A stretch of 64,000 nucleotides of DNA from a virus (taxonomy: Duplodnaviria; Caudoviricetes), in the IMG/VR virus record IMGVR_UViG_3300035208_001913, positions 1 through 64,000 of that record; one strand, 5' to 3'. The position numbers were made by a program, and so were the translations under genes. Of the stretch, positions 40,587-56,167 are shown piece after piece. Numbering within the stretch: the stretch's first letter is position 1; every line of letters starts with the position of its first letter. Below the pieces are notes generated by a model that worked only from the letters and a program-made list of their open reading frames with translations, made no database searches and had not been told where the DNA came from.

Positions 40587-42059
40587 TTAGGACTGTGCCG
40601 GTACATAATATACAGGGTTAGCATTTGTAGGAACAGGTTTGAAAATTCTTGAAACCTTATTTCTACAGATAACACCTGATTGGAAAAGTAAATGTTTGTG
40701 ACTACCATCAATTGAAGAAGCAATATCTCCACCTGCATCAATACCTTTAACGGTACCAGACTTAACACCTCTGAGTGTCATCATTTCAATACCATTATTG
40801 CCATTATCATCAACACCCAAAGGTACGATGATTGCATCATGAGAAGAACGTCTTGTTCCATCAGGTAAGTCAATACTTGGACGTTGCATTGTATCGAAGT
40901 AACGGTAACGGATAAATTTAAGCCTAACACCATCAATTTCATAGTATTCATAAGAGTTGTTTACGCCCTTACTTGCACCACTACCTTCAACGTTGTTATT
41001 CATAGTTGTGAAACCAGCTTCTCTTAATACTCTACTAAAGTTAGATATTGCTTGTTTTCCACCCATTACTACAGCTTCAATAAGTCCATCTTTACCACGT
41101 CTTAAATCAATGTCTGACATGATACCTTCAATGAAGTTCATATTCCATACACTTACAGGATATTCAAAAGCACCTTCACCTTGGTACATGATACCATCAC
41201 CGGCCATTACTTCACGACCTTTAGTATCTTTCATTAAGATGTTACCATCTTCATCAACAGTACCTTGTCCAAATACCATAGCATATTCATGATATTCAGC
41301 TGCTCTTTTCATCATAAGATAATCAGCATGTGATAAGAATGATTTTTCACCATTATGAATAGTCCATTTCATTCCTTCTTTCATTGCTGCTGCTGTACCT
41401 GACCATGAGTGTTTGAAACGTTGTAATGTCATGTATGAACGACCCCATCCATCAAAAGTGTATTTCTCACCTGCTGTTTCAGAGAAATCGTGTTCGTACA
41501 TTGTCATTACTGGAGTGCATTCCATTCCTTCTTGTAAAAGAATAGGATCACAATAGGTAGCTTTAATTTTGGTAACAACTTTTACTCTGTATTTAAACGA
41601 ACCATTATATTCTTCTGGAACTTGGTCGTCTATAATATAAAGTAATGTTCTGTTATCAGCTAATTCTAAAGTTTCTTTTGGTATAGCCCAATTTGAATCT
41701 AAGTAAACATAGAATTCGGTCTGGTCTTTACCGGGAGTTGTTGGATAAGCATCGGAAGCATAACAAGCACCATTTGAAAAGACACCTACGAAACGCATCT
41801 TTCTTTTATTGGTATTTGCTATAGGATACATTACCACATTTGATTTTGTAACTTTGTATTGTCCGTTTGCTAATCCTTCATAAAGTCCTTTAGCTTTCAA
41901 ACCTTTTATTTCTAAAAAGTCTGTAAGTGGTGCTTCTTCGGGAAACAAACGATAAACGGTTGTAATCATATCGGGGTCAACTACTGCTGCCCTCATTAAG
42001 TTATAGCTACTAATACTTTCATTGGCTATATCTTTAGGTTGTCCTGGGAGTAATCTCAT
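40587..42059 (-). CDS. Major capsid protein
   Basis: 490 aa; size, position and motifs (MTLQRFKHSWSG, GREVMAGDGIMYQ, YEIDG...FD) fit crAss-like MCP. Confidence 0.85.
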   Translation of the reverse strand: MRLLPGQPKDIANESISSYNLMRAAVVDPDMITTVYRLFPEEAPLTDFLEIKGLKAKGLYEGLANGQYKVTKSNVVMYPIANTNKRKMRFVGVFSNGACYASDAYPTTPGKDQTEFYVYLDSNWAIPKETLELADNRTLLYIIDDQVPEEYNGSFKYRVKVVTKIKATYCDPILLQEGMECTPVMTMYEHDFSETAGEKYTFDGWGRSYMTLQRFKHSWSGTAAAMKEGMKWTIHNGEKSFLSHADYLMMKRAAEYHEYAMVFGQGTVDEDGNILMKDTKGREVMAGDGIMYQGEGAFEYPVSVWNMNFIEGIMSDIDLRRGKDGLIEAVVMGGKQAISNFSRVLREAGFTTMNNNVEGSGASKGVNNSYEYYEIDGVRLKFIRYRYFDTMQRPSIDLPDGTRRSSHDAIIVPLGVDDNGNNGIEMMTLRGVKSGTVKGIDAGGDIASSIDGSHKHLLFQSGVICRNKVSRIFKPVPTNANPVYYVPAQS

Positions 42060-45877: not shown

Positions 45878-48412
45878 TTAATCTTTTACCATTTCTTTTT
45901 TTCTTGCTACTTTTTCTTTTACTTTAATATCAGCCATCTTAACTTCTAATCCATTCTTTTCCATAAGGGCATTTATATTCATCTGCATTGCTTGTAGTTG
46001 TAAACCTATACCCTGTAGTTCTTCATTTTTAATAGCACTACGTTGTTGTTCTCCAAGATAAGTAAGTTCTACGTCTCTCTCAGATGTTATTGATGCTGCT
46101 TTAATATTTGCTTCTGTATCAATTTTTTTATTATCTATTTGTAATTTCTTTTCCGCTAACTGAGCATCAAGTTCCATCTTAGATTTTTTCAACTGTAAGT
46201 CAAGTTCTTTGAGTTTAACGTCTTGTTGTTTTAACATACCCTCAAAGTCCTGGTCAAATTTCTTCAACTCCATCTCTGCCTGTTTCTGTGCTTCTATCTG
46301 ATTAGTTTGCGATTTCTGTGCTAATTCCTGTGATTTCTTAGTCCAAAATCTAAATGATTTCTTTAACTGTGTCAAAGATTCCATATCGTAAATATCAAGA
46401 ACTTTTTCAAAAGGCATTTGTCCTTTTTCTGATTGTCTGAAAGCCATCTGCTTTAATTCATTTTTAGACTGTTCTTCTTCTGAACTATTTTCATACATAA
46501 CTGCATAGTCAGAACCGGATAATAATTCTTTAGGTATATTAATATACTCTATACCATCAGGATTTTTAATATCTAATATAGCACCATCTTTCCATGCATA
46601 CTTACAGTAGTAATTTATTAACTGTGTCATAGCACGTATTTCTACTTCATCATGTTTATAGAAAAGTATTTCGGTGATTAACATAGACTGTTCTCTTGCC
46701 ATCTCTGCTGTTCCTACTTGGTCTGTTGCTACTATTTGTCCTAACCTCTGTCTTGGTACTCCTATAATCTCTAAGGCAGTATTTCTAATACTTTCTAACA
46801 TATTATCAATATATTGTACCGAAGGAGGAAGTGTATCATCATAGTCTTTCCATTGATTATAAGGACTTGTTACCTTTCCTGTTTTTTTTACTGTTTCAAT
46901 ATAAAGATTACCTGTTTTTTTATGATATTTATGTTCCTCTAAAGTCATTCCCTCTGGAGTCTGTGCAATATCTATTATCTGTCCTTTAACTCCCGATACT
47001 GCTATGATAAGTTCTCTATGATAATGAAGTAATACAAAGAGGTCTTGTAAATCTTTCGTTGCCCATATAAGACTATAAGGTTGATTAGCAATATTTGAAA
47101 ATGAAGGTCCAATGATTGGTAATCTACGTTTCATATAATTATCTCTATCAATAAGAGCTTCATCTTTTCTTCGTGCATTGACAACATACTTACCATTTAT
47201 TATTACTGCTTGGTATATGTCTGTCATATATCTTTTAGTTATTTTCTTATATTGTTTAGCTATATTTTCATCTATAATGTTATCATAGAAATGTTTAAAA
47301 TCTATATCAGGATTATTTTTATTAGATTTCTCTCCTATATGAATAGTCTTTGGAACTCTCCAATATATTCGTACTCTTTCTATTCCTGTACTTGTATCTT
47401 CGGTACCACCATATAAACCTGTATTAGATTCATCAGATAAATCAGAACCTAAAGATAAACCACTTTCTATTTCTTCAATGATACTATCATTAAGGTCTGG
47501 ACTATCTCCATATATATCAATGAAATCATTAAAAGAAATAACATCTTTTACCCCTGCCCATGGTCCATCTTCAACCCAATCAACACCTGCAATTTTAGGA
47601 TAGAATATGTTATTAGAGTTAAGATAATAATAATCACATTTATTAGCTTCCGGGACATAATCTACAAACCTATATTCTTTTCCTGTTACAAATCTATCTG
47701 TAATACCCATAACTCTTTGAGTACGGATATTATGTTCTGTGATAAGTTTCTTTAAACCTTTTTGTGCTAATATCTCTTTAAGGTCTCGATAGTCATAAGT
47801 ATAATATTCTTCAATCTCATTTTTCTTATCTTCATTGATTTGGATTTTATTACTTATTTCTTCTTGTATTAAAGTTAGTTGATTTTCTAACTGGGGTAGT
47901 ATCTTTTTTAATTCTTCTTGCTGTTGTGCCTGTTGTTCATTCTGTGGTTGTTGTTGTAATTGTTGTTGTATCTGTTGTAACTGTTGTTGCATAGAACTAA
48001 GTGCCATACGCATCTCACTCTGTTGTATAAGTAATTCCTTTTTAATCTTATCCAGCATATCAATAAACATAGTCTCCTGTTTCTTTTCTTTAGATTCATT
48101 ATCATTGATAAATGTAGATAATATAAAAGGTCTGCGTGAGGCTTGTGATATTAAGAGGTCTATAGGACTTCTCTGAATAGATATATTCCTTATCTTTGAA
48201 GGTAATGAAAATGTTTCTTCACCATTAGGACTTTTTATTTTAGTAAGATAATCCCAATCTTCGGGATTCATATATCCATGATAATAACGCCAGCATTTTA
48301 AATCTCTGTATTTTTCTAATCTATTACCTATTGTTTGGTGATATAATGCAAGTGCATATTCTTCCATCCATGGTTTATCCTTTTTTTTATTAAGGGTTGA
48401 AAGTAATTTCAT
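45878..48412 (-). CDS. Portal protein
   Basis: 844 aa; YYHG, PIDLL, PYSL...DLQDL, IIGVPRQRLGQI motifs; long C-terminal coiled-coil barrel. Confidence 0.85.
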   Translation of the reverse strand: MKLLSTLNKKKDKPWMEEYALALYHQTIGNRLEKYRDLKCWRYYHGYMNPEDWDYLTKIKSPNGEETFSLPSKIRNISIQRSPIDLLISQASRRPFILSTFINDNESKEKKQETMFIDMLDKIKKELLIQQSEMRMALSSMQQQLQQIQQQLQQQPQNEQQAQQQEELKKILPQLENQLTLIQEEISNKIQINEDKKNEIEEYYTYDYRDLKEILAQKGLKKLITEHNIRTQRVMGITDRFVTGKEYRFVDYVPEANKCDYYYLNSNNIFYPKIAGVDWVEDGPWAGVKDVISFNDFIDIYGDSPDLNDSIIEEIESGLSLGSDLSDESNTGLYGGTEDTSTGIERVRIYWRVPKTIHIGEKSNKNNPDIDFKHFYDNIIDENIAKQYKKITKRYMTDIYQAVIINGKYVVNARRKDEALIDRDNYMKRRLPIIGPSFSNIANQPYSLIWATKDLQDLFVLLHYHRELIIAVSGVKGQIIDIAQTPEGMTLEEHKYHKKTGNLYIETVKKTGKVTSPYNQWKDYDDTLPPSVQYIDNMLESIRNTALEIIGVPRQRLGQIVATDQVGTAEMAREQSMLITEILFYKHDEVEIRAMTQLINYYCKYAWKDGAILDIKNPDGIEYINIPKELLSGSDYAVMYENSSEEEQSKNELKQMAFRQSEKGQMPFEKVLDIYDMESLTQLKKSFRFWTKKSQELAQKSQTNQIEAQKQAEMELKKFDQDFEGMLKQQDVKLKELDLQLKKSKMELDAQLAEKKLQIDNKKIDTEANIKAASITSERDVELTYLGEQQRSAIKNEELQGIGLQLQAMQMNINALMEKNGLEVKMADIKVKEKVARKKEMVKD

Positions 48413-48999
48413 TATTTTTTTGTTTTAGGTAAGTAGTCAAACATTCTCCTTCTCATCTCTATTTTCTTATTTTTAGAACCTATCTTTATTAGTTGTTCTA
48501 ATTCTTTAGACAAAGATATTAAAGATTTACTTAATGCTAACGCATCAGCTTTTTCCTTACTATTATCTATTTCTACTTGTACCTTTTTATTTTCTATTAA
48601 TCCATTAATTTCTACAGGTACCTCAACCGTTACAATCTTTGTGAATTTGATATTTCCGATTCTTGTTATAAGATCATCCATATCATTCTGAACATTTTTT
48701 CTTAATCTTTCTTCTCTGGAACATTGAATTTCTTCGTACAAATTTATGAAATTTTTTACATCTTTATTATTTTCATATAAATTTATATCTTCTCCACCTA
48801 AATGTCTTTTACAAATATACAACTTTCTTTGAGAAGTTAGCATTTCTCTGTAAATACTTTCGTTGCAATACATCCAAAAAATATATGTAAGAGCTTTATC
48901 ATAGAACTCTTTACCATGTTTTTTTAATTTAAGGACTTCTTCAATATATTGAGCTTCCTTAATAACTTCTACTTTACCATCTATTTCTTCTAATATCAT
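48412..48999 (-). CDS. Helical packaging-region protein (possible terminase small subunit)
   Basis: KALTYIFWMY...SIY pattern with C-terminal coiled coil; overlaps both TerL and portal genes. Confidence 0.45.
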   Translation of the reverse strand: MILEEIDGKVEVIKEAQYIEEVLKLKKHGKEFYDKALTYIFWMYCNESIYREMLTSQRKLYICKRHLGGEDINLYENNKDVKNFINLYEEIQCSREERLRKNVQNDMDDLITRIGNIKFTKIVTVEVPVEINGLIENKKVQVEIDNSKEKADALALSKSLISLSKELEQLIKIGSKNKKIEMRRRMFDYLPKTKK

Positions 49000-51023
49000 T
49001 TGTATGCTACTTTAAAATTACCATTTCTATCTTGGACATAATAAGAAAATCTTACTTTCTTATCTTTTTTAGCTATTAATTCTTCTTCTACCTCCAATAC
49101 TAATACTTCACATATTGCTGTTGCTATCGTTATATCACAATTATATTTTGCTTCTTTAGGATTATACTTAAACTTAGCATAAGCTTTCATCTGTTCCACA
49201 TCATCCATTTTAGAAATAAAATCATCTGTAAGTCTATCTCTAAGAATAGAAAGCCAATAAGGTTTTGTTGCAGGGTCTATACCCCACCAGTTACTTGACT
49301 TACTATTATCAACCATATTAGCCATTGCAAATTCAGGTCGTGGCATAACAAATGCTGAAAGATTATTCCTTTTATACCAATCGAATATTCTTAACTTGCT
49401 ATGCTCTATAAGGTTTCTACAACCAAAATAAACACTTAATAAAGCACTATATTCAAAGAATGTTTCTGCTCCTCCTTCTTCTACCGTCGGTCTTGAAACT
49501 ACTCTTGCTACATACTTACTACTTGACTGTAAAGCATTATAGAAAGTCTTACGGATATAAGATGCACCCATAGAATTAGTATAATAGGCTTCATCCTGGT
49601 CATAACTATCAGTACCTTGTAAATATAATCCTTCTGGTATTATTCCATCAACTTTATAAGGATGCTCATAGATATAAAATGGTCCTGCTATATCAGCTTC
49701 CCAAACAACACCATTATATTTATTCTTAATATCTTTCCATCTTAACCACCCTCTTGATTCTACTTGACTTGCCTTGTTAAGATTTACATAGGCTATTCTT
49801 TCATTTAACTTCTGTGTTATACTTTCTCCAAAATAACCACCACCTGTTATAAGGAATATATCTGTAGCAAATAAAGGATGCTGAGTACGATAACGATATT
49901 TCTCTTCATGAGTTTTCTTTTTCTCATATTCTTTCTGCCACTCTATCATACTTGCTCCTATAAGACTATTACCTTCACTATCAATAATCTTATATTCTAA
50001 ATCACGTATTACATGCCCTACCCTCCTACTTGATTCCTCTTTATCCCATTTGTTCTTAAAAGATAGAATATTATATTGTTCAGGATTATAATGACGTTGT
50101 TCCATATCATAAACACCATCAGACATTTCACCCCCGGTTCCTAAGAAGAACTGAAATCCTGTTTTAACTCCTTCATTCCATATAGAAGGTTCAACAAAAC
50201 CGGCAGTACTTATACTCCAGTTTTTCTTTCCCTTACCTATTTCTTCATATATAATCCAGTATGGAGAATATCTACTCATACATTGAGGATTGTCTTTAGC
50301 AGTAATACATCTTACTTCACTTTTAGTATTTTGACTTTGGATAAGTTCTTTATTATCTCCACCTTTAGAACGGTCTTTATAGAATTGGGTATTTTTAAGA
50401 TAGTCTAAACCATCTTTAGTCATATTAAATGTATTCTCAGCATCAGTGAGTGTATAACCTACTATGATAGTTTGTGCTGCAGGAACAAAGGTATAGTTCC
50501 AACCGGCTATCATACCTGCTACTTTATTACTTTCTCCCTTTTGACGTGCTTTAGAATCCTGGTTATCTTTACTTTGTTCTTCCATCATCTGTAACCGACG
50601 TGCAAAAAGGAAATCTATATCAAGGAATTTAGGATATGTTAATTGTTTAGCATTTCCAAACATCTTATTCTTAACTAAAGCTTTCATACGCCAGAAGTTA
50701 AGATAGAAATATAAACGAGGTGGAATGATTATAGTACGATTATAAATCCATAGATCATAATTAGGTAAGTAACAATCATTACCTTCCCAGATACAATCAA
50801 TGCCATCAATAAACATGTCTCCACCTTTTTCAATAGCATCTTCTACAATATATCCTTCAGTACAATACTTCTGTTGTCTTTCCCACCATGACTCATCAGT
50901 GATACATTTACTTAACGTATCTTTATCTACATCTTCGGGATTAAGATGAAACATATCATCTTTATCCGGAAGGTCTAATCCTGCTGCTACAGGTGAAAAT
51001 TTTATCGTATTTACAAAACGCAT
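48996..51023 (-). CDS. terL: Terminase large subunit
   Basis: LYFYLNF, Walker A KARQKGES, Walker B IIYEEIG, GTGG motif, nuclease GTDSYDQD and DITIA. Confidence 0.92.
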   Translation of the reverse strand: MRFVNTIKFSPVAAGLDLPDKDDMFHLNPEDVDKDTLSKCITDESWWERQQKYCTEGYIVEDAIEKGGDMFIDGIDCIWEGNDCYLPNYDLWIYNRTIIIPPRLYFYLNFWRMKALVKNKMFGNAKQLTYPKFLDIDFLFARRLQMMEEQSKDNQDSKARQKGESNKVAGMIAGWNYTFVPAAQTIIVGYTLTDAENTFNMTKDGLDYLKNTQFYKDRSKGGDNKELIQSQNTKSEVRCITAKDNPQCMSRYSPYWIIYEEIGKGKKNWSISTAGFVEPSIWNEGVKTGFQFFLGTGGEMSDGVYDMEQRHYNPEQYNILSFKNKWDKEESSRRVGHVIRDLEYKIIDSEGNSLIGASMIEWQKEYEKKKTHEEKYRYRTQHPLFATDIFLITGGGYFGESITQKLNERIAYVNLNKASQVESRGWLRWKDIKNKYNGVVWEADIAGPFYIYEHPYKVDGIIPEGLYLQGTDSYDQDEAYYTNSMGASYIRKTFYNALQSSSKYVARVVSRPTVEEGGAETFFEYSALLSVYFGCRNLIEHSKLRIFDWYKRNNLSAFVMPRPEFAMANMVDNSKSSNWWGIDPATKPYWLSILRDRLTDDFISKMDDVEQMKAYAKFKYNPKEAKYNCDITIATAICEVLVLEVEEELIAKKDKKVRFSYYVQDRNGNFKVAYK

Positions 51024-51349
51024 TATTTTCCTTTAGGAAATTTAGACTTCTCATTTAATTTGAATGTTGCTCTTTCTTCCATATACTTCATTACAGTAAC
51101 ATAATCTGTTTCTGCAATATGCCACGGTACTAATGAGTTACTATGAAATACATTTTTATAATATATCTTATCCGGGCCCCACCATCCACATTCAATACCT
51201 TTTATTACACATCTTGTCTCTTGAAGTGTTGAGTTACCTCTTGTAGTATTAAACTTTTTAAACTCTTTAATAACTCTTATCACTTCTAACTTAATTCCTA
51301 AGTTATCTTTATGGGCGACATCATCACCCTCTTTAAAATAATAGTCCAT
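51023..51349 (-). CDS. YodC/DUF2158-like small beta-barrel protein
   Basis: FKEGDDVAHK...IECGWW...VFHSNSL pattern. Confidence 0.55.
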   Translation of the reverse strand: MDYYFKEGDDVAHKDNLGIKLEVIRVIKEFKKFNTTRGNSTLQETRCVIKGIECGWWGPDKIYYKNVFHSNSLVPWHIAETDYVTVMKYMEERATFKLNEKSKFPKGK

Positions 51350-51360
51350 TGTTTATATTT

Positions 51361-52962
51361 TTATGTTACTAATATTGCTATACCCTTTTGTATGAATACA
51401 AGAGCCCATTTATTTTTAATTTTATATGTTTTTCCTATCTCATATATACTGAAAGTTTTTGTAAATAACAATAATACACTTTCTTTATTAACAGGATTTT
51501 TATCTATTATTACACCTGAATGTTCTCCTGTTTGTATAGAAGTATAGGTTTTATCTAAATATACTTTATTAGGTATTACTTCATTTAATTTTTTAGCTAC
51601 TCTATAATCTCCACGTTTCCAATATCCCCATTCAATATCTTTTGAATATTTACTATGAAACATATATCCTATTGTACTTATATCTCTACAGATAGGATTT
51701 CCTCCTTCTTTCATAGACTTCCAATTACCATCACTGGGAACTAATCTATTTAGAAAGTCAACACGCCAAAATAATAAATCATCTTCTGTATTTATTCCAG
51801 TTACTAATTCTTCTATTACAGTAGGATTTGTAAGTTTATCATCATCATCTAAATATAATATCCAACCATTATTAACTTTTTTTGTCATTATATCAAGATA
51901 ATGATTATAAGGGAACCATATACCATAATCTACAATATCCTCTGGCTTTTCTATTTCATTAATAACTTTATCATAATGAACCACTCTACATTTATAAGGA
52001 TATACATATTTTTTAGTTTCCTCATCTTTCTTTTCTATACCTACAATAACATTAATATTTTCATAAGTTTGTTCTAAAATACTTTTCATGCAATCATGAA
52101 AATAATTTTCTCTCCTACATGAACGAATAAGAATATTAACTGTTGGCTTTTTATCTATATATAACATTTTAGTTTTTTTATATAATTGTTCATAACTGGG
52201 AACATATACTATTTGACTATCTGCAAATTGAGGATACCATCTTTGAAAAGAACCTATTTTTATTTCCTGCGTTTCCGGAAATCCTGGTTTACTATAAATA
52301 ATATTCTGACCACCAAAGAAAGAAGCAAGAATAGAATAGCCACCATTCATAGTAATATAATGTTGACAATTACTAAATACTTGTAACATTACTTTATTCC
52401 AATCTGATTTCTGTTTATTAAGAAGGTCTTGAAAAATAATAATTTCTTTATGGTTATTTTTAATATGTTCATAATCACCTAATTTTAAATTATGAGCATG
52501 ATCCTGAAAACATTCCGGTAAATCTACACCAAAATAAACTATCTGATATTTATCTTTTAGTTTCTTAAATAATCTATCAAGACATTCTAAAGAAAAATAA
52601 TTAATTGGTTTTATCTTCCATTCTATATTATATCTATTACAAATACATAATGTAGGTTTATCCCATTTATATTTATCATTAGAATAATATTCTTTGTAAG
52701 GTGGTATTTCAAATTTAGTAAAATCAAGATAATGAGTATGAATTTTAGCATTAGGTATTTTCTCTTTATATAATTTATCCATATTATCCCAATCTCTATT
52801 ATCTGCTGAAATAGTATGTTTAGGACTAAAATAATATAGTGACTTACTTCCTTTTCCGGAAATAGTTTCTTTAAGTTTCTTTTGTTTATGTAACCAATAA
52901 GCATAAGGAACACAACTTATTAATTCATATCCAAACTCTACATTATAACTATTTATAATCAT
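51361..52962 (-). CDS. Two-domain glycosyltransferase (uncharacterised N-terminal GT-B-like domain plus GT2 domain)
   Basis: C-terminal TVNILIRS...SILEQTYEN, ILYLDDDD (DxD), GDY; N-terminal domain with HYITMNGGYSILASFFG. Confidence 0.8.
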   Translation of the reverse strand: MIINSYNVEFGYELISCVPYAYWLHKQKKLKETISGKGSKSLYYFSPKHTISADNRDWDNMDKLYKEKIPNAKIHTHYLDFTKFEIPPYKEYYSNDKYKWDKPTLCICNRYNIEWKIKPINYFSLECLDRLFKKLKDKYQIVYFGVDLPECFQDHAHNLKLGDYEHIKNNHKEIIIFQDLLNKQKSDWNKVMLQVFSNCQHYITMNGGYSILASFFGGQNIIYSKPGFPETQEIKIGSFQRWYPQFADSQIVYVPSYEQLYKKTKMLYIDKKPTVNILIRSCRRENYFHDCMKSILEQTYENINVIVGIEKKDEETKKYVYPYKCRVVHYDKVINEIEKPEDIVDYGIWFPYNHYLDIMTKKVNNGWILYLDDDDKLTNPTVIEELVTGINTEDDLLFWRVDFLNRLVPSDGNWKSMKEGGNPICRDISTIGYMFHSKYSKDIEWGYWKRGDYRVAKKLNEVIPNKVYLDKTYTSIQTGEHSGVIIDKNPVNKESVLLLFTKTFSIYEIGKTYKIKNKWALVFIQKGIAILVT

Positions 52963-53840
52963 GAAATTATATTTTTATCTTTTAATATTTTTATAATATT
53001 ATTTGCTTTATGTTCCCATGTATGATTATTTAAAATAAAGTTATATGCACGTTCAACTATTTCTAATCTTTCATTTTCATGAGAAAGATAATAATTAATT
53101 TTTTCTGTTAATTCGTCGAATGTTTTAAAATAAATTACATTATTACCAAATACTTCACGAAGTTCTTTTGTTTCATATGCAATACATAATGCCTTATATC
53201 CTATAATTTGATACATCCTATTTGAATATGTACGTGATGTATCGTAATGATTTATAGCTATACCTATTTTGGATTCATTATAAACACTATTATGAATTTT
53301 CTTTATATTAAAAGACCAATCAGTACCAAAACAATAAAAATTTTTATACATATTCATAAGTCTAAAAATATATGAACATCGTATTGAACTTAAAGGAAAA
53401 ATATTTAAACTATTTTGTCCAGTGAAAACTATATCATATTTTCTTTCAATATCTTTAACTTCATAAGGTTTAAATCCCATCATCAAATATTCTGCATTTT
53501 TTCCTAACTTTTTTACTTCTTCTTTAGAATTATCACTTGAAGTTAAAAATAAATTAATAGAAGTCATAAATTTATACCAAGATTCCAAAGGTATTCTTTC
53601 ATCATTTCTCCAATATATATTATAAGAGTTTTTAAAATGTTCATAAGTCTGAATATTGAAACAAAATTTATTATAATGTATTAAAACAACATCTGGTTTA
53701 AAATTATCATAATATTTAATAATATCATTCTGTATTTCAAACTGAAATATTTGTATCTCGGAAAAATAATTATTAAACTCTTTAATAAAATTATTTAATT
53801 GATTATACCTATCTTTCTTAATTATATAAAGTAATTTCAT
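52959..53840 (-). CDS. GT-B glycosyltransferase (CgeB / Glyco_trans_1_2-like)
   Basis: YDIVFTG, YNESKIGI, SNRMYQIIG, KINYYLSHENER, HTWEHKA. Confidence 0.8.
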   Translation of the reverse strand: MKLLYIIKKDRYNQLNNFIKEFNNYFSEIQIFQFEIQNDIIKYYDNFKPDVVLIHYNKFCFNIQTYEHFKNSYNIYWRNDERIPLESWYKFMTSINLFLTSSDNSKEEVKKLGKNAEYLMMGFKPYEVKDIERKYDIVFTGQNSLNIFPLSSIRCSYIFRLMNMYKNFYCFGTDWSFNIKKIHNSVYNESKIGIAINHYDTSRTYSNRMYQIIGYKALCIAYETKELREVFGNNVIYFKTFDELTEKINYYLSHENERLEIVERAYNFILNNHTWEHKANNIIKILKDKNIIS

Positions 53841-54760
53841 AATAGTTTTAATAATTCAATTTCTACTTTTTTACTTATAATTTTATAATCAAATTGTTTT
53901 ACTACTTCTAATGCATTAGTTCTTATTCTATTCCTTTCTTCTTCATTTGAAATTAAATATTCTATATATTCTTTCATTAATATATCATTTCCACATTGTA
54001 CTTTGTATGTTGTTTCTTTATTAAATGCAAATTCGCTATTACACATTATATCAGTACAAACTACAATACAACCACATGCCATAGCTTCTAATACAGGATT
54101 ACACCAACCACCTCTTATATGACCATCTACATATATAAGTCCTGTGTTTAGAAAATCAGACATATCAGTTTGTTTAATACCTTTAGCAAAATATGTTTTA
54201 ATAGGTAACTTATTAAATCCTTCAAGTGCATTTATTACAGTTTCACTACCTTTACGTGGTCTCATATCTCCAGCCCATATTAAACAATCTCTTTTAATAT
54301 CAGGTTTATACTTAAACATATTAAGATTTATACCTCCTACTGATATATCTAATACTTTAAAATTTTCTTTTCTAAGAAGTTCTAATTGTTTATTTGAATC
54401 AGCAATAAGATAATGATGTGTAACAATTTCTTTTAAAAATCTACTTTTATTGAAATCTTTATTATTATCATCTACTCCCATAAAACAATAGATTTTTATT
54501 TTAGCTTTAGCTGCCTTAAAAAATTCAGTGTACATTAGTTCATCAGGAACCGCAACCATTATAAGAAAATCTAAATCATCATCTATACATTTATGACAAT
54601 GTTTTGTTTTACCAAGATATTCTATCCATGTAACTGAATTAGCAGCCGGAGCATATAGAGTTACTTCATGACCATATTTTACTAACCAATTACTATTTTC
54701 AATAACTTCTCGAACACTACCAAATATTCCATTAGTAGATATTAACCATCCTATTTTCAT
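53837..54760 (-). CDS. GT4 family glycosyltransferase
   Basis: GHEVTLY, RPRKG, GWCNPVLEAMACGCIVVCTD. Confidence 0.88.
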   Translation of the reverse strand: MKIGWLISTNGIFGSVREVIENSNWLVKYGHEVTLYAPAANSVTWIEYLGKTKHCHKCIDDDLDFLIMVAVPDELMYTEFFKAAKAKIKIYCFMGVDDNNKDFNKSRFLKEIVTHHYLIADSNKQLELLRKENFKVLDISVGGINLNMFKYKPDIKRDCLIWAGDMRPRKGSETVINALEGFNKLPIKTYFAKGIKQTDMSDFLNTGLIYVDGHIRGGWCNPVLEAMACGCIVVCTDIMCNSEFAFNKETTYKVQCGNDILMKEYIEYLISNEEERNRIRTNALEVVKQFDYKIISKKVEIELLKLL

Positions 54761-55287
54761 AATAAAATATTTTTAAAATTACATAGATAATATTCCCAAC
54801 TATAAATTCCTTTAGGTATTTTATATTTTTTCTTTTTATTATAAAGAAGAACAATACCTGTTTCTATATCTTTTAGTTCCATATACCAACCTTCTTTAGC
54901 AAGTTGAACTATTGCTACCCAAACATCACCTTGCCAATTTTTAGATATTCTTTCTCTAAATTGATGATGTTCTGCTTTAGGTAAACAATCATGTATTACA
55001 ATAACTCCTTTATTATTTAAAACAGATAAAGAATTATTTACATCTTTTATAACTTGTTCACTTAAATGTAATCCATCAACAAAAATAATATCAAATGTAT
55101 TTTTATTTTCTATAAAAAAATCATCAGATGTTTTCATTATTGTTGCTTCATTTATAGGATCAACACTAATTTTTACTTTACAGATAATTTCATTAAAATT
55201 GATTCCACTACCTGCACCTATTTCAAGATAACTTTTATAGTTATTATCTTTTATTAATTTATTTAATAATATAGTTCTTTCTAACAT
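54757..55287 (-). CDS. Class I SAM-dependent methyltransferase (Methyltransf_24-like)
   Basis: YLEIGAGSG, SVDP, TSDDFF, FDIIFVDGLH, GVIVIHDC. Confidence 0.85.
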   Translation of the reverse strand: MLERTILLNKLIKDNNYKSYLEIGAGSGINFNEIICKVKISVDPINEATIMKTSDDFFIENKNTFDIIFVDGLHLSEQVIKDVNNSLSVLNNKGVIVIHDCLPKAEHHQFRERISKNWQGDVWVAIVQLAKEGWYMELKDIETGIVLLYNKKKKYKIPKGIYSWEYYLCNFKNILL

Positions 55288-55302
55288 AATTTATTTTTTT
55301 TA

Positions 55303-55334
55303 CAAACTTATTAATCTTTTTTAACTTCTTCAAA
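55303..55334 (-). promoter_or_regulatory. Bacteroidota primary-sigma promoter (-33 TTTG, 20-nt spacer, -7 TAAGTTTG)
   Basis: Both elements with consensus spacing, 15 nt upstream of the methyltransferase ATG. Confidence 0.65.
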
Positions 55335-55408: not shown

Positions 55409-56167
55409 TTAATTATTTTGATATTTAAAAATAAATCCCCTTATTGTTTTACGTTCATTTCTACAAACTCGTCTTATACTATTATAACAAATACCCGTAT
55501 CTTTACATGCTATATTAATATTATCAAAAGTATTTATTAATTCATTTAGTTTAGAATATTGAAATACTTTAATCCAATTTTCTTCTTTTTTAAAATGACT
55601 TTTACTTAGATTTTCTATATGTTTAGAACTAAATATAATACCTTTTCTTGAATTACTTATTTTATTTTTTGTTTCTTCAGTTCTTTTTTTTCCTAACATA
55701 TATTTATTACCTTTTTTTAATTCCGATATTTTCTTTTTAAATAATTCTGATTTTTTAGAACCTAAATTATATTTATTACCTTTCCTATATTTCATTAACA
55801 TTAAATTTACTTCATCTGACATTTTTCTACCTGGTTTTCCAGTTAATGCTTTACTTATTTTCAGTTTAGTTTCATTAGACATTATTCTTACATTACCACC
55901 ATCTATAAGATTTAATCCATATTTTGAATTAAAAGTTTGAAATAAATCAACATAATATTTTTCTAATTCATTTAATTGTTCAGAATTACATTCTTGTAAT
56001 ATTTCAAATTTATGTTTATCAACACCATATTTTTTTAAAGAATTATAAATTCTTGGTTGTGATTTACACTTTAAATACTTATATTCTTTCCATCTTTTTT
56101 CAATATCTTTACTTTGTCCAATATAAATATTCATAGTTGGACTTGTTATCTTATATATTCCTATCAT
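55409..56167 (-). mobile_element. Free-standing GIY-YIG homing endonuclease with NUMOD3 repeats and C-terminal NUMOD1/IENR1
   Basis: GIYKIT...YIGQS...KRW, E...GLN; repeats SNETKLKIS / TEETKNKIS; VFQYS...I..AC...VC C-terminus. Confidence 0.9.

What the first reader, a model, noticed from the sequence alone, without database searches (positions are those of the whole stretch)
51361..55334. Glycosylation cassette (methyltransferase + GT4 + CgeB-like GT + two-domain GT2) with its own promoter, leading into the packaging genes
Seen: four tightly overlapped (ATGA) genes behind a full -33/-7 promoter, in the late/structural orientation and reading on toward terL. They encode up to four transferase domains and no nucleotide-sugar synthesis or base-modification genes. 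Known: some actinobacteriophages glycosylate capsid/tail proteins using GT clusters within structural operons; DNA glycosylation normally needs a hydroxymethylase or similar handle. Inference: this crAss-like phage may build a multi-sugar, methyl-capped glycan on its virion, or remodel host surface glycans. I am not aware of this being characterised in crAss-like phages. This is the best candidate for an undescribed system in the window.
Basis: partly seen in the sequence, partly recalled or inferred. Interest (0 to 1): 0.8.

Follow-up and report, generated by a model that had tools for sequence, protein, structure and literature searches.

The report
Phage capsid sugar-coating gene cassette
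An environmental crAss-like phage carries, just ahead of its DNA-packaging genes, four soluble enzymes (four sugar-adding domains and a methyl-adding enzyme) that most likely put a small methylated sugar chain on its own capsid protein, a feature shown so far only in mycobacteriophages and algal giant viruses with unrelated enzymes.

Summary
Four minus-strand genes (54757-55287, 53837-54760, 52959-53840, 51361-52962) are joined by ATGA overlaps. A Bacteroidetes-type -33/-7 motif precedes them, and they run on through a 108-aa gene into terL and the portal gene.

They encode a Methyltransf_24 methyltransferase, a GT4-like enzyme, a CgeB-like GT-B enzyme and a two-domain enzyme. The unexplained N-terminal 270 aa of the last one is a compact GT-B fold closest to GT9 heptosyltransferases. 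Its C-terminal part is a GT-A domain with an invariant DDD.

This two-domain family has hundreds of metagenomic members and none in 50,697 GenBank phage records. About 30 of 39 viral loci hold it in or beside the head or packaging module. It occurs split, and also fused to a homologue of this methyltransferase.

In two unrelated capsid-protein families, capsid proteins encoded beside this enzyme end in a C-terminal serine (17 of 18). Relatives without it rarely do (6 of 54). This phage's capsid protein also ends in serine, though the link is weaker in its own lineage.

No enzyme that would make a DNA base handle is present. None of 80 crAss-like relatives has the cassette.

Best reading: virion (capsid) glycosylation, unproven. 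The scan has noted similar head-module cassettes in many other phages.

The parts
55303..55334 (-). Bacteroidetes-type promoter-like motif TTTG-N20-TAAGTTTG in the 121-nt gap before the cassette
   Evidence: the only one of 4 window matches placed upstream of a co-oriented gene; not enriched overall (3.5 expected)
54757..55287 (-). 176-aa class I SAM methyltransferase (Methyltransf_24, O-methyltransferase-like); predicted to methylate the glycan
   Evidence: Pfam 36.8 bits; all 46 homologues carry PF13578 and one is named 'predicted O-methyltransferase YrrM'; 38% identical to the C-terminal domain of a natural fusion with the two-domain glycosyltransferase (P0024)
53837..54760 (-). 307-aa GT4-like (Glycos_transf_1) GT-B glycosyltransferase
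   Evidence: Pfam 50.1 bits; homologues lie beside the two-domain enzyme in L008, L009, L031, L037 and L048
52959..53840 (-). 293-aa Glyco_trans_1_2 (CgeB-like) glycosyltransferase
   Evidence: Pfam 70.8 bits; the same Pfam family sits in the Francisella polysaccharide cluster that holds a homologue of the two-domain enzyme
52153..52962 (-). N-terminal domain (residues 1-270) of the 533-aa protein: compact GT-B fold, closest to GT9 heptosyltransferases; invariant EFGYEL and NGG motifs
   Evidence: AF2 pLDDT 94.7; VIA-align Z: WaaC 14.5, a Veillonella GT9 14.2, WaaF 13.8, TibC 12.4; alignments A1 and A2
51361..52152 (-). C-terminal part (residues 271-533): GT-A (GT2-like) domain with invariant DDD 372-374 and near-invariant D452, plus a roughly 45-aa terminal mini-domain
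   Evidence: Foldseek hits SpsA, WrtF and TarP at E 2e-8 to 1e-6; invariant columns in A1; the mini-domain is found only inside this family
51023..51349 (-). 108-aa ORF between the cassette and terL; conserved in relatives that lack the cassette, so it belongs to the packaging block and not to the cassette
48996..51023 (-). Large terminase, the first packaging gene downstream of the cassette
   Evidence: phrog_6681 at 7.5e-45
40587..42059 (-). Major capsid protein, the predicted acceptor (inferred): it ends ...YYVPAQS, with a C-terminal Ser on a tail about 12 aa longer than in most relatives
   Evidence: phrog_11589 at 6e-18; C-termini compared

Best explanation
The cassette is a late-expressed, phage-encoded protein-glycosylation system that decorates the virion. 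The most likely target is the major capsid protein at its exposed C-terminal serine.

All four proteins are soluble and cytoplasmic. They would use host nucleotide sugars. One of the four glycosyltransferase domains would start an O-linked glycan on the acceptor, and the others would extend it to a short oligosaccharide. The GT9-like GT-B domain is a candidate for the first step because its nearest solved relatives include the protein heptosyltransferase TibC. The Methyltransf_24 enzyme would O-methylate a sugar, probably as a cap.

Transcription together with terL, the portal gene and the capsid gene would supply the enzymes when capsid protein is being made.

Shown here: gene structure, folds, conserved catalytic motifs, synteny, the methyltransferase fusion, and the link between the enzyme and a serine-ended capsid protein.

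Inferred: the acceptor, the order of action, the sugars, and the benefit (shielding or adhesion of the particle).
For: 1. Synteny. About 30 of the 39 IMG/VR loci with a homologue of the 533-aa protein hold it in or beside the head or packaging module. It lies directly after an HK97-type capsid gene, after a phrog_7231 capsid-type gene, between terL and portal, or beside portal. These are at least seven independent backgrounds.
2. Neighbours. The genes beside it there are other soluble transferases: Methyltransf_11/25, TOD1/MUCI70, GT2_4, GT-D-like, and homologues of this cassette's GT4 and methyltransferase.
3. Fusion and split forms. The methyltransferase is 38% identical to a domain fused to the enzyme in P0024. 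The enzyme's two domains also occur as separate genes.
4. Capsid C-terminus, first family. All 12 distinct HK97-type capsid proteins encoded beside the enzyme end in Ser. They are only 20-31% identical, and the terminal Ser is one of 9 invariant columns. Among relatives without the enzyme, 4 of 22 groups end in Ser (Fisher p 3e-6). One of those four has a different GT2 right after the capsid gene. None of 5 non-Ser control records has a GT2.
5. Capsid C-terminus, second family. In the unrelated phrog_7231 family, 5 of 6 with the enzyme end in Ser against 2 of 32 without it (p 2e-4). A matched pair differs at the last residue...QEVS with the enzyme...QEVV without.
6. Capsid C-terminus, third family. 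The ends are AGS, AAS and AAT.
7. This phage's capsid protein ends ...VPAQS.
8. Precedents. Mycobacteriophage glycans sit at the C-termini of capsid and tail-tube subunits (PMC12619734, citing Freeman 2023). Corndog gp35-38 lie inside its head module, and Che8 gp108-110 lie just before its HNH and packaging end (PMC12363180). PBCV-1 A064R is a soluble GT+GT+methyltransferase protein that builds the methylated cap of the capsid glycan (PMC9614988).
9. No transmembrane segments. No thymidylate-synthase homologue, TET or C5 methylase in this complete genome.
10. Rarity in cells. The family is rare in cellular genomes: 19 loci among 185,579 species.
Against: - No direct evidence of a glycan exists; the phage is uncultured.
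- In this phage's own lineage the serine link is weak. Ten of 44 relatives' capsid proteins also end in Ser without any cassette near terL. One of them is a complete 92.6-kb genome with no GT2 and no N-domain homologue.
- L012 and L020 carry the enzyme beside portal, but their capsid proteins end in Ala. L010 is a further exception.
- The association tests use dereplicated sequences and are not corrected for phylogeny.
- Cellular homologues sit in ABC-transporter-type polysaccharide clusters, so the domains may extend glycans on lipid carriers.
- 33 of 120 homologues have K/R-rich, partly AT-hook-like tails. These hint at DNA or membrane binding.
- The cassette proteins show no sequence similarity to the mycobacteriophage enzymes.
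Confidence: 0.55

Rival explanations
1. Host envelope remodelling. The enzymes act at the cytoplasmic face of the membrane on lipid-linked LPS, capsule or other polysaccharide precursors of the Bacteroidota host. The altered surface would block superinfection, or stop progeny from sticking to infected cells and debris.
For: - Homologues in real bacteria lie in polysaccharide clusters. In Pseudoxanthomonas the cluster has Wzm/Wzt ABC transporter genes, UDP-glucose dehydrogenase, multi-domain GTs and methyltransferases. In Francisella philomiragia it has KpsC/S-like Capsule_synth, a pyruvyl transferase and a Glyco_trans_1_2 gene.
- The nearest solved folds of the N-domain are the LPS heptosyltransferases WaaC and WaaF.
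- Benler et al. 2021 read a glycosyltransferase between portal and capsid genes in 'Gratiaviridae' this way (PMC8008677).
- Basic C-terminal tails in 33 of 120 homologues could bind membranes.
Against: - The cassette has no flippase, transporter, priming transferase or membrane segment.
- The genes sit in a late structural operon of an apparently lytic phage, which leaves little time to export a new surface glycan.
- The family is rare in cellular genomes, where prophages would show up. A seroconversion function would predict the opposite.
- This reading does not explain the repeated placement beside capsid genes or the serine-ended capsid proteins.
- A 30%-identical homologue of the N-domain occurs in a giant virus of eukaryotes.
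Confidence: 0.17
2. DNA sugar hypermodification. The enzymes glycosylate phage DNA around the time of packaging, to protect it from host nucleases.
For: - Phage GT-A enzymes with TarP-like folds and R...DDD...EDY/F motifs, and GT-B enzymes related to LPS enzymes, put mono- to trisaccharides (including heptose) on 5hmC. Such clusters can lie near terminase and structural genes (bioRxiv 10.1101/2023.12.21.572611).
- The GT-A domain here hits TarP and carries R280, DDD 372-374 and GDY 451-453.
- The cassette abuts terL.
- 15 of 120 homologues end in AT-hook-like RGR/GRP motifs.
- PHROGs labels the methyltransferase family 'DNA methyltransferase'.
Against: - No thymidylate-synthase homologue and no C5 methylase in this 100%-complete genome. 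No Tet_JBP hit either, though that model never passed its cut-off in any control genome.
- Two other complete or near-complete genomes carrying the enzyme also lack a thymidylate-synthase homologue.
- The DDD and acidic-base motifs are general to inverting GT-A enzymes.
- The methyltransferase is Methyltransf_24, is fused to the glycosyltransferase in nature, and lacks DNA-methylase motifs.
- This phage's own enzyme has no basic tail.
- This reading does not explain the capsid serine association.
Confidence: 0.1
3. Another cytoplasmic target. The enzymes glycosylate a different virion part (tail fibre, portal, head fibre), a host protein or a small molecule, for example as an anti-defence measure. 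On this reading the head-module position reflects a tolerated insertion site for accessory genes.
For: - The cassette is absent from 80 crAss-like relatives, so it is an accessory acquisition.
- It has lower GC (20-26%) than the core genes (28-36%) and lies next to a GIY-YIG homing endonuclease.
- L012 and L020 carry the enzyme but their capsid proteins do not end in Ser.
- In L022 and L027 the enzyme lies among metabolic genes.
Against: - An insertion-site effect does not predict a conserved C-terminal Ser on neighbouring capsid proteins in two unrelated families.
- Four glycosyltransferase domains plus a methyltransferase are more than is needed to inactivate a small molecule.
Confidence: 0.1

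Closest known systems
Mycobacteriophage virion glycosylation (Che8 gp108-110, Corndog gp35-38, Myrna; Freeman et al. 2023, read only through PMC12619734, PMC12363180 and PMC11256854)
   Same: - Phage-encoded soluble glycosyltransferases.
- The genes lie in the head module (Corndog, between gp34 and the protease gp39) or directly before the packaging end (Che8); checked.
- The glycans are reported at the C-termini of capsid and tail-tube subunits, which matches the serine-ended capsid proteins found here.
   Different: - No detectable sequence similarity to any of the four proteins here (blastp and a family HMM).
- Different host phylum and phage type.
- This cassette adds a GT9-like domain and a methyltransferase.
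- The glycan here is only predicted.
Chlorovirus PBCV-1 A064R (with A061L): GT + GT + methyltransferase acting on the capsid protein Vp54 glycan (PMC9614988)
   Same: - A virus-encoded, soluble, multi-domain enzyme.
- Two glycosyltransferase domains and a class I SAM methyltransferase build and methylate the end of the capsid glycan.
- The natural fusion P0024 (GT9-like + GT-A + methyltransferase) has the same layout.
   Different: - Eukaryotic virus.
- N-linked glycan on internal Asn residues.
- Homology to A064R was not tested here.
- A064R is expressed early.
GT9 heptosyltransferases (WaaC, WaaF) and the protein heptosyltransferase TibC
   Same: - They are the best structural matches of the N-domain, over nearly its whole length (Z 12.4-14.5).
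- The domain has an acidic residue cluster after strand 1 and a glycine-rich loop, where GT-B enzymes bind donor and acceptor.
- TibC O-glycosylates serines of a protein in the cytoplasm.
   Different: - Only 8-14% identity.
- The Pfam Glyco_transf_9 model does not match.
- The domain is about 60-110 residues shorter.
- Donor sugar unknown.
Phage DNA sugar-hypermodification clusters (5hmC, 5hmU or 5hoC glycosylation; Pyle et al., bioRxiv 10.1101/2023.12.21.572611; Lee et al., PMC13326640)
   Same: - Several GT-A and GT-B enzymes derived from LPS or teichoic-acid enzymes.
- Oligosaccharide products.
- Sometimes located near terminase genes.
   Different: Those pathways need a thymidylate-synthase homologue, or a C5 methylase plus a TET-type oxygenase. 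None was found in this complete genome.

Membership tests
CAZy GT9 / Pfam Glyco_transf_9 (N-domain of the 533-aa protein) | GT-B fold superposable on the heptosyltransferases | tested here: met
   VIA-align Z 14.5 (WaaC), 14.2, 13.8 (WaaF) and 12.4 (TibC), with 216-229 residues aligned. Foldseek's top two hits are GT9 structures.
CAZy GT9 / Pfam Glyco_transf_9 (N-domain of the 533-aa protein) | Sequence match to the family model PF01075 | tested here: not met
   No PF01075 hit at E <= 0.01. Only 30-39% of members of some neighbouring Atlas clusters carry it. The domain is a GT9-like fold, not a sequence member.
GT-A / GT2 (C-domain of the 533-aa protein) | GT-A fold with a DxD metal-binding motif and an acidic catalytic base | tested here: met
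   SpsA, WrtF and TarP at E 2e-8 to 1e-6. D372-D374 invariant and D452 in at least 90% of 29 homologues.
GT-A / GT2 (C-domain of the 533-aa protein) | Pfam Glycos_transf_2 above the curated cut-off | tested here: not met
   19.7 bits against a cut-off of 23.3. Many homologues do carry PF00535 in the precomputed table.
GT4 / Pfam Glycos_transf_1 (307-aa protein) | Family model above cut-off, and the EX7E motif | tested here: inconclusive
   50.1 bits against 26.4. The second Glu is present (LEAMACG), but Gly replaces the first Glu eight residues before it (read).
Pfam Glyco_trans_1_2 (CgeB-like; 293-aa protein) | Family model above cut-off | tested here: met
   70.8 bits against 25, residues 167-283.
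Methyltransf_24 class I SAM methyltransferase (176-aa protein) | Family model above cut-off, and a glycine-rich SAM loop | tested here: met
   36.8 bits against 26.3. EIGAGSG at residues 22-28. All 46 homologues carry PF13578.
Mycobacteriophage virion-glycosylation enzymes (Che8 gp108-110 / Corndog gp35-38) | Homology to those glycosyltransferases | tested here: not met
   Best blastp E 0.018 over a short stretch; no hit with the family HMM. Che8 and Corndog proteins match each other at 47-56% identity.
Mycobacteriophage virion-glycosylation enzymes (Che8 gp108-110 / Corndog gp35-38) | Glycan covalently bound to capsid or tail-tube subunits | not testable with these tools
   Needs virions or co-expression plus mass spectrometry. 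The only indirect evidence is the serine-ended capsid association.
Phage DNA sugar hypermodification | A thymidylate-synthase homologue that makes 5hm or 5ho pyrimidines in the genome | tested here: not met
   No PF00303 match at E <= 1 in a record rated 100% complete; the control rang in 10 of 14 genomes.
Phage DNA sugar hypermodification | A C5 DNA methylase plus a TET/JBP oxygenase in the genome | tested here: inconclusive
   No PF00145 match, with working controls. No PF12851 match, but that model never passed its cut-off in any control genome.
Seroconversion-type O-antigen modification (GtrABC-like) | Membrane flippase and membrane glycosyltransferase components | tested here: not met
   No hydrophobic segment typical of a membrane span. 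The highest 19-residue Kyte-Doolittle mean is 1.74, inside a Rossmann core. No such Pfam families.

The most novel reading that the evidence does not exclude
The two-domain enzyme (GT9-like GT-B plus GT-A) defines a large, uncharacterised, mostly viral family. Its job would be to O-glycosylate the C-terminal serine of major capsid proteins. A terminal Ser would then act as a portable 'glycan tag' used by many unrelated environmental phages, this crAss-like phage among them.
Probability: 0.4. Interest if true: 0.8.

Novelty: new variant of a known kind. Interest (0 to 1): 0.66.

Why it matters
Virion glycosylation by a phage's own enzymes is experimentally established only for a few mycobacteriophages. 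There it changes antibody recognition. If this reading is right, an unrelated enzyme family does the same in hundreds of uncultured phages of Gram-negative and Bacteroidota hosts, and has been picked up by a crAss-like phage.

The work yields a concrete, cheap test. Co-express a serine-ended capsid protein with the cassette and look for a mass shift that a Ser-to-Ala change removes.

A glycan coat would bear on how phage particles stick to mucus and polysaccharides, how they escape adsorption to debris or recognition by immune systems, and how capsid surfaces might be engineered. It also gives a function to an unannotated domain family of about 940 sequence clusters.

Tried and rejected
- **Close relatives in IMG/VR.** Single-protein scans with the 533-aa protein and with TerL found nothing. 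Alignment-based scans were needed.
- **GenBank phages.** tblastn of the 533-aa protein against 50,697 records gave no match. blastn of the region matched only 220 nt of the homing-endonuclease gene.
- **The look-up of encoding contigs.** The contexts of the closest TerL relatives (65-75% identity) and of the metagenomic homologues could not be read.
- **PDB sequence searches.** Searches with the methyltransferase, the GT4-like and the CgeB-like proteins gave nothing useful.
- **Hairpin sites.** I looked for the integron-like hairpin sites reported elsewhere in this genome at the cassette borders. Only weak AT-rich inverted repeats turned up.
- **C-terminal mini-domain.** I tested whether the roughly 45-aa terminal mini-domain of the 533-aa protein copies a separate head-module protein. 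It occurs only inside this family.
- **Ser/Thr-tract proteins.** I looked for small Ser/Thr-tract proteins beside the enzyme and found none.
- **Capsid alignment.** The alignment of all 12 HK97-type capsid proteins was too diverse for a collection scan. A five-sequence subset was used instead.
- **'DNA methyltransferase' label.** I rejected the PHROGs label for the methyltransferase. Its Pfam family, its homologue names and the natural fusion to the glycosyltransferase all point to a sugar or small-molecule O-methyltransferase.

Full report
**What is there**

The window is the first 64 kb of a 94,993-bp single-contig virus record rated 100% complete. It is a distant crAss-like phage:
- TerL (48996-51023, minus strand) matches phrog_6681 and is about 26% identical to crAss-like terminases.
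- The portal gene is at 45878-48412.
- The major capsid gene is at 40587-42059 (phrog_11589).
- A 6650-aa ORF lies downstream.

The four flagged ORFs are real and on the minus strand: 54757-55287 (176 aa), 53837-54760 (307 aa), 52959-53840 (293 aa) and 51361-52962 (533 aa). Their three junctions are ATGA overlaps. Close packing continues through a 108-aa ORF into terL, a 195-aa ORF and the portal gene. No terminator-like site lies between 50800 and 57200.

The 121-nt gap upstream holds TTTG-N20-TAAGTTTG at 55303-55334. The pattern is no more frequent in the window than chance (4 found, 3.5 expected). This copy is the only one in an intergenic gap on the right strand.

The cassette genes and the GIY-YIG/NUMOD homing-endonuclease gene just upstream (55409-56167) have 20-26% GC. 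Core structural genes have 28-36%.

**The proteins**

Pfam gives Methyltransf_24, Glycos_transf_1 (GT4-like) and Glyco_trans_1_2 (CgeB-like), all above their cut-offs. For residues 278-329 of the 533-aa protein it gives a sub-threshold Glycos_transf_2 hit.

An AlphaFold model of the 533-aa protein, built on 29 homologues, has mean pLDDT 92.5.
- Its C-terminal half is a GT-A domain like SpsA, WrtF and TarP. D372-D374 are invariant and D452 is nearly invariant.
- The N-terminal 270 residues, modelled alone (pLDDT 94.7), form a compact GT-B fold. Its four best matches among 48,161 chains are all GT9 enzymes: WaaC (Z 14.5), a Veillonella GT9 (14.2), WaaF (13.8) and the protein heptosyltransferase TibC (12.4).
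- The Pfam GT9 model does not match, so this is a GT9-like fold and not a sequence member.
- Invariant EFGYEL (E9, E13) after strand 1 and NGG 206-208 sit where GT-B enzymes bind acceptor and donor. This placement is my inference.

None of the four proteins has a membrane-span-like segment. The cassette therefore encodes four soluble glycosyltransferase domains and one methyltransferase.

**The family and where it lives**

The two-domain protein has 386 full-length relatives at 40-58% identity in metagenome protein sets. Some are fused to a further GT2 domain or to Methyltransf_24.

A profile of the N-domain finds 939 clusters at 50% identity among 1.84 billion representatives. Nearest neighbours are mostly viral and include giant viruses. 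A Terrestrivirus protein is 30% identical with TM 0.87.

No homologue exists in 50,697 GenBank phage records. Only 19 loci turned up among one genome each of 185,579 prokaryote species.

The methyltransferase is 38% identical to the C-terminal domain of the natural fusion P0024. All 46 of its homologues are Methyltransf_24, and one is named a predicted O-methyltransferase. This ties it to the glycan pathway and not to DNA methylation, despite a PHROGs label.

I mapped 39 IMG/VR loci and annotated the recurring neighbours. About 30 hold the enzyme in or beside the head or packaging module. The placements are:
- directly after an HK97-type capsid gene in a TerL-portal-protease-capsid row;
- after a phrog_7231 capsid-type gene;
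- between terL and portal (L005, L033-L038, and L048 from a Bacteroidetes bin);
- beside portal (L012, L020).

The genes wedged in with it are other soluble transferases. These are Methyltransf_11/25, TOD1/MUCI70, GT2_4, GT-D-like, and homologues of this cassette's GT4 and methyltransferase. The two domains also occur as separate genes.

Exceptions are L022 and L027, where the enzyme lies among NAMPT genes, and L016-L018 and L023, whose neighbours are unannotated.

In real bacteria, larger homologues sit in ABC-transporter-type polysaccharide clusters:
- Pseudoxanthomonas: Wzm/Wzt, UDP-glucose dehydrogenase, multi-domain GTs and a methyltransferase.
- Francisella philomiragia: KpsC/S-like Capsule_synth, a pyruvyl transferase and a Glyco_trans_1_2 gene.

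**A link to the capsid protein**

While reading the capsid proteins encoded beside the enzyme, I found that they end in serine.

- *HK97-type family.* All 12 distinct sequences end in Ser. They are only 20-31% identical to each other, and the terminal Ser is one of nine invariant columns.
- *Relatives of that family without the enzyme* (29-41% identical, fetched). Only 4 of 22 distinct groups end in Ser; the rest end in V, P, L, A, T or I. Fisher p is 3e-6.
- *Glycosyltransferases among those relatives.* One of the four Ser-ending groups (L173) has a different GT2 gene immediately after its capsid gene. None of five non-Ser control records has any GT2.
- *Unrelated phrog_7231 family.* Five of six with the enzyme end in Ser. 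Among relatives at 53-89% identity that lack it, 2 of 32 distinct sequences do. Fisher p is 2e-4. A matched pair differs at the last residue...QEVS with the enzyme and ...QEVV without.
- *Third family.* The ends are AGS, AAS and AAT.
- *Exceptions.* L012 and L020 end in Ala, and L010 in Val.

The counts are dereplicated but not corrected for phylogeny.

According to PMC12619734, citing Freeman et al. 2023, mycobacteriophage glycans sit at the C-termini of capsid and tail-tube subunits. I could not read the primary paper.

**This phage specifically**

Its capsid protein ends ...YYVPAQS, on a tail about 12 residues longer than in most relatives (...RIFRPYNS).

The link is weaker here. Ten of 44 crAss-like relatives also end in Ser, and none of 80 relatives (TerL 34-49% identical) has a homologue of any cassette gene within 10 kb of terL. 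A complete 92.6-kb relative has neither a GT2 nor the N-domain.

The cassette is therefore a lineage-specific acquisition placed at the head of the packaging block.

**Rivals**

*DNA glycosylation.* Pyle et al. (bioRxiv 10.1101/2023.12.21.572611) show TarP-like GT-A and LPS-like GT-B phage enzymes building oligosaccharides on 5hmC, sometimes near terminase genes. Fifteen of 120 homologues of the enzyme here end in AT-hook-like motifs.

Those pathways need a thymidylate-synthase homologue, or a C5 methylase plus a TET-type oxygenase. This complete genome has none at E <= 1, and two other complete or near-complete carrier genomes lack the thymidylate-synthase homologue. The TET model never passed its cut-off in any control genome, so that part is inconclusive.

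*Host-glycan remodelling.* Benler et al. proposed this for a head-module glycosyltransferase (PMC8008677). It fits the cellular homologues. It does not fit the lack of any export or membrane component, the late lytic context, the rarity in cellular genomes, or the capsid serine pattern.

**Comparison with what is known**

The closest systems by function are two.
- *The mycobacteriophage cassette.* Corndog gp35-38 lie between gp34 and the capsid protease. Che8 gp108-110 lie just before the HNH and packaging end. The two sets are 47-56% identical to each other.
- *PBCV-1 A064R.* This is a soluble GT+GT+methyltransferase protein that builds the methylated cap of the capsid glycan (PMC9614988).

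The proteins here share no detectable sequence similarity with the mycobacteriophage enzymes. This cassette would work like those systems, but it is not a member of that family.

**Verdict**

I rate it a new variant of a known kind. The known kind is glycosylation of a virus particle by the virus's own enzymes. What is new is the enzyme family, the phage group, and a specific testable acceptor, the capsid C-terminal serine.

Earlier notes of this scan describe similar head-module transferase cassettes in many other phages. Those notes are not independent evidence. One of them gave the Corndog lead, which I checked against the record.

Noticed in passing
window 55409-56167 (-): A GIY-YIG + NUMOD homing-endonuclease gene lies directly upstream of the cassette. 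Part of it (about 220 nt) is 70% identical at the DNA level to Flavobacterium phage FL-1, the only nucleotide match of the region in GenBank phages. A second GIY-YIG/NUMOD ORF exists elsewhere in the genome.
   Followed up: partly
P0001 homologues, e.g. P0010, P0026, P0123: 33 of 120 homologues of the two-domain enzyme end in a K/R-rich tail. Fifteen of these have AT-hook-like RGR/GRP cores (e.g. KKRGRPV, KKAGRPKKK). The window's own protein lacks such a tail. The tails could bind DNA, membrane or the procapsid interior; this is unexplained.
   Followed up: partly
window 48412-48999 and 51023-51349; loci L062, L070, L118: Gene order differs from relatives. In them the 108-aa and 195-aa ORF homologues both precede terL. 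Here the 195-aa ORF lies between terL and portal.
   Followed up: no
TerL homologues P0182, P0198, P0203, P0212, P0213, P0230: Several TerL relatives are about 1040-1090 aa and carry intein or homing-endonuclease domains (PF14528, PF05203, PF05204). Terminase inteins are therefore common in this phage clade. The window's TerL has none.
   Followed up: no
L118:9756-11220 and L122:15883-17360: The two closest capsid-protein relatives (57-58% identical) also carry C-terminal extensions. One is rich in Ser/Thr/Gly (...LSTGGSTASTGGTAV). Neither record shows a GT2 or the N-domain, but both records are incomplete.
   Followed up: partly
BFVD A0A3G4ZQV3: A Terrestrivirus (giant virus) protein of 329 aa is 30% identical to the GT9-like N-domain (TM 0.87). 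The domain family therefore spans phages and giant viruses of eukaryotes.
   Followed up: no
L173:5433-6317: A phage whose HK97-type capsid protein ends in Ser lacks the two-domain enzyme. It has a different 294-aa GT2 gene immediately after the capsid gene. This suggests that other enzyme families can fill the same position.
   Followed up: partly
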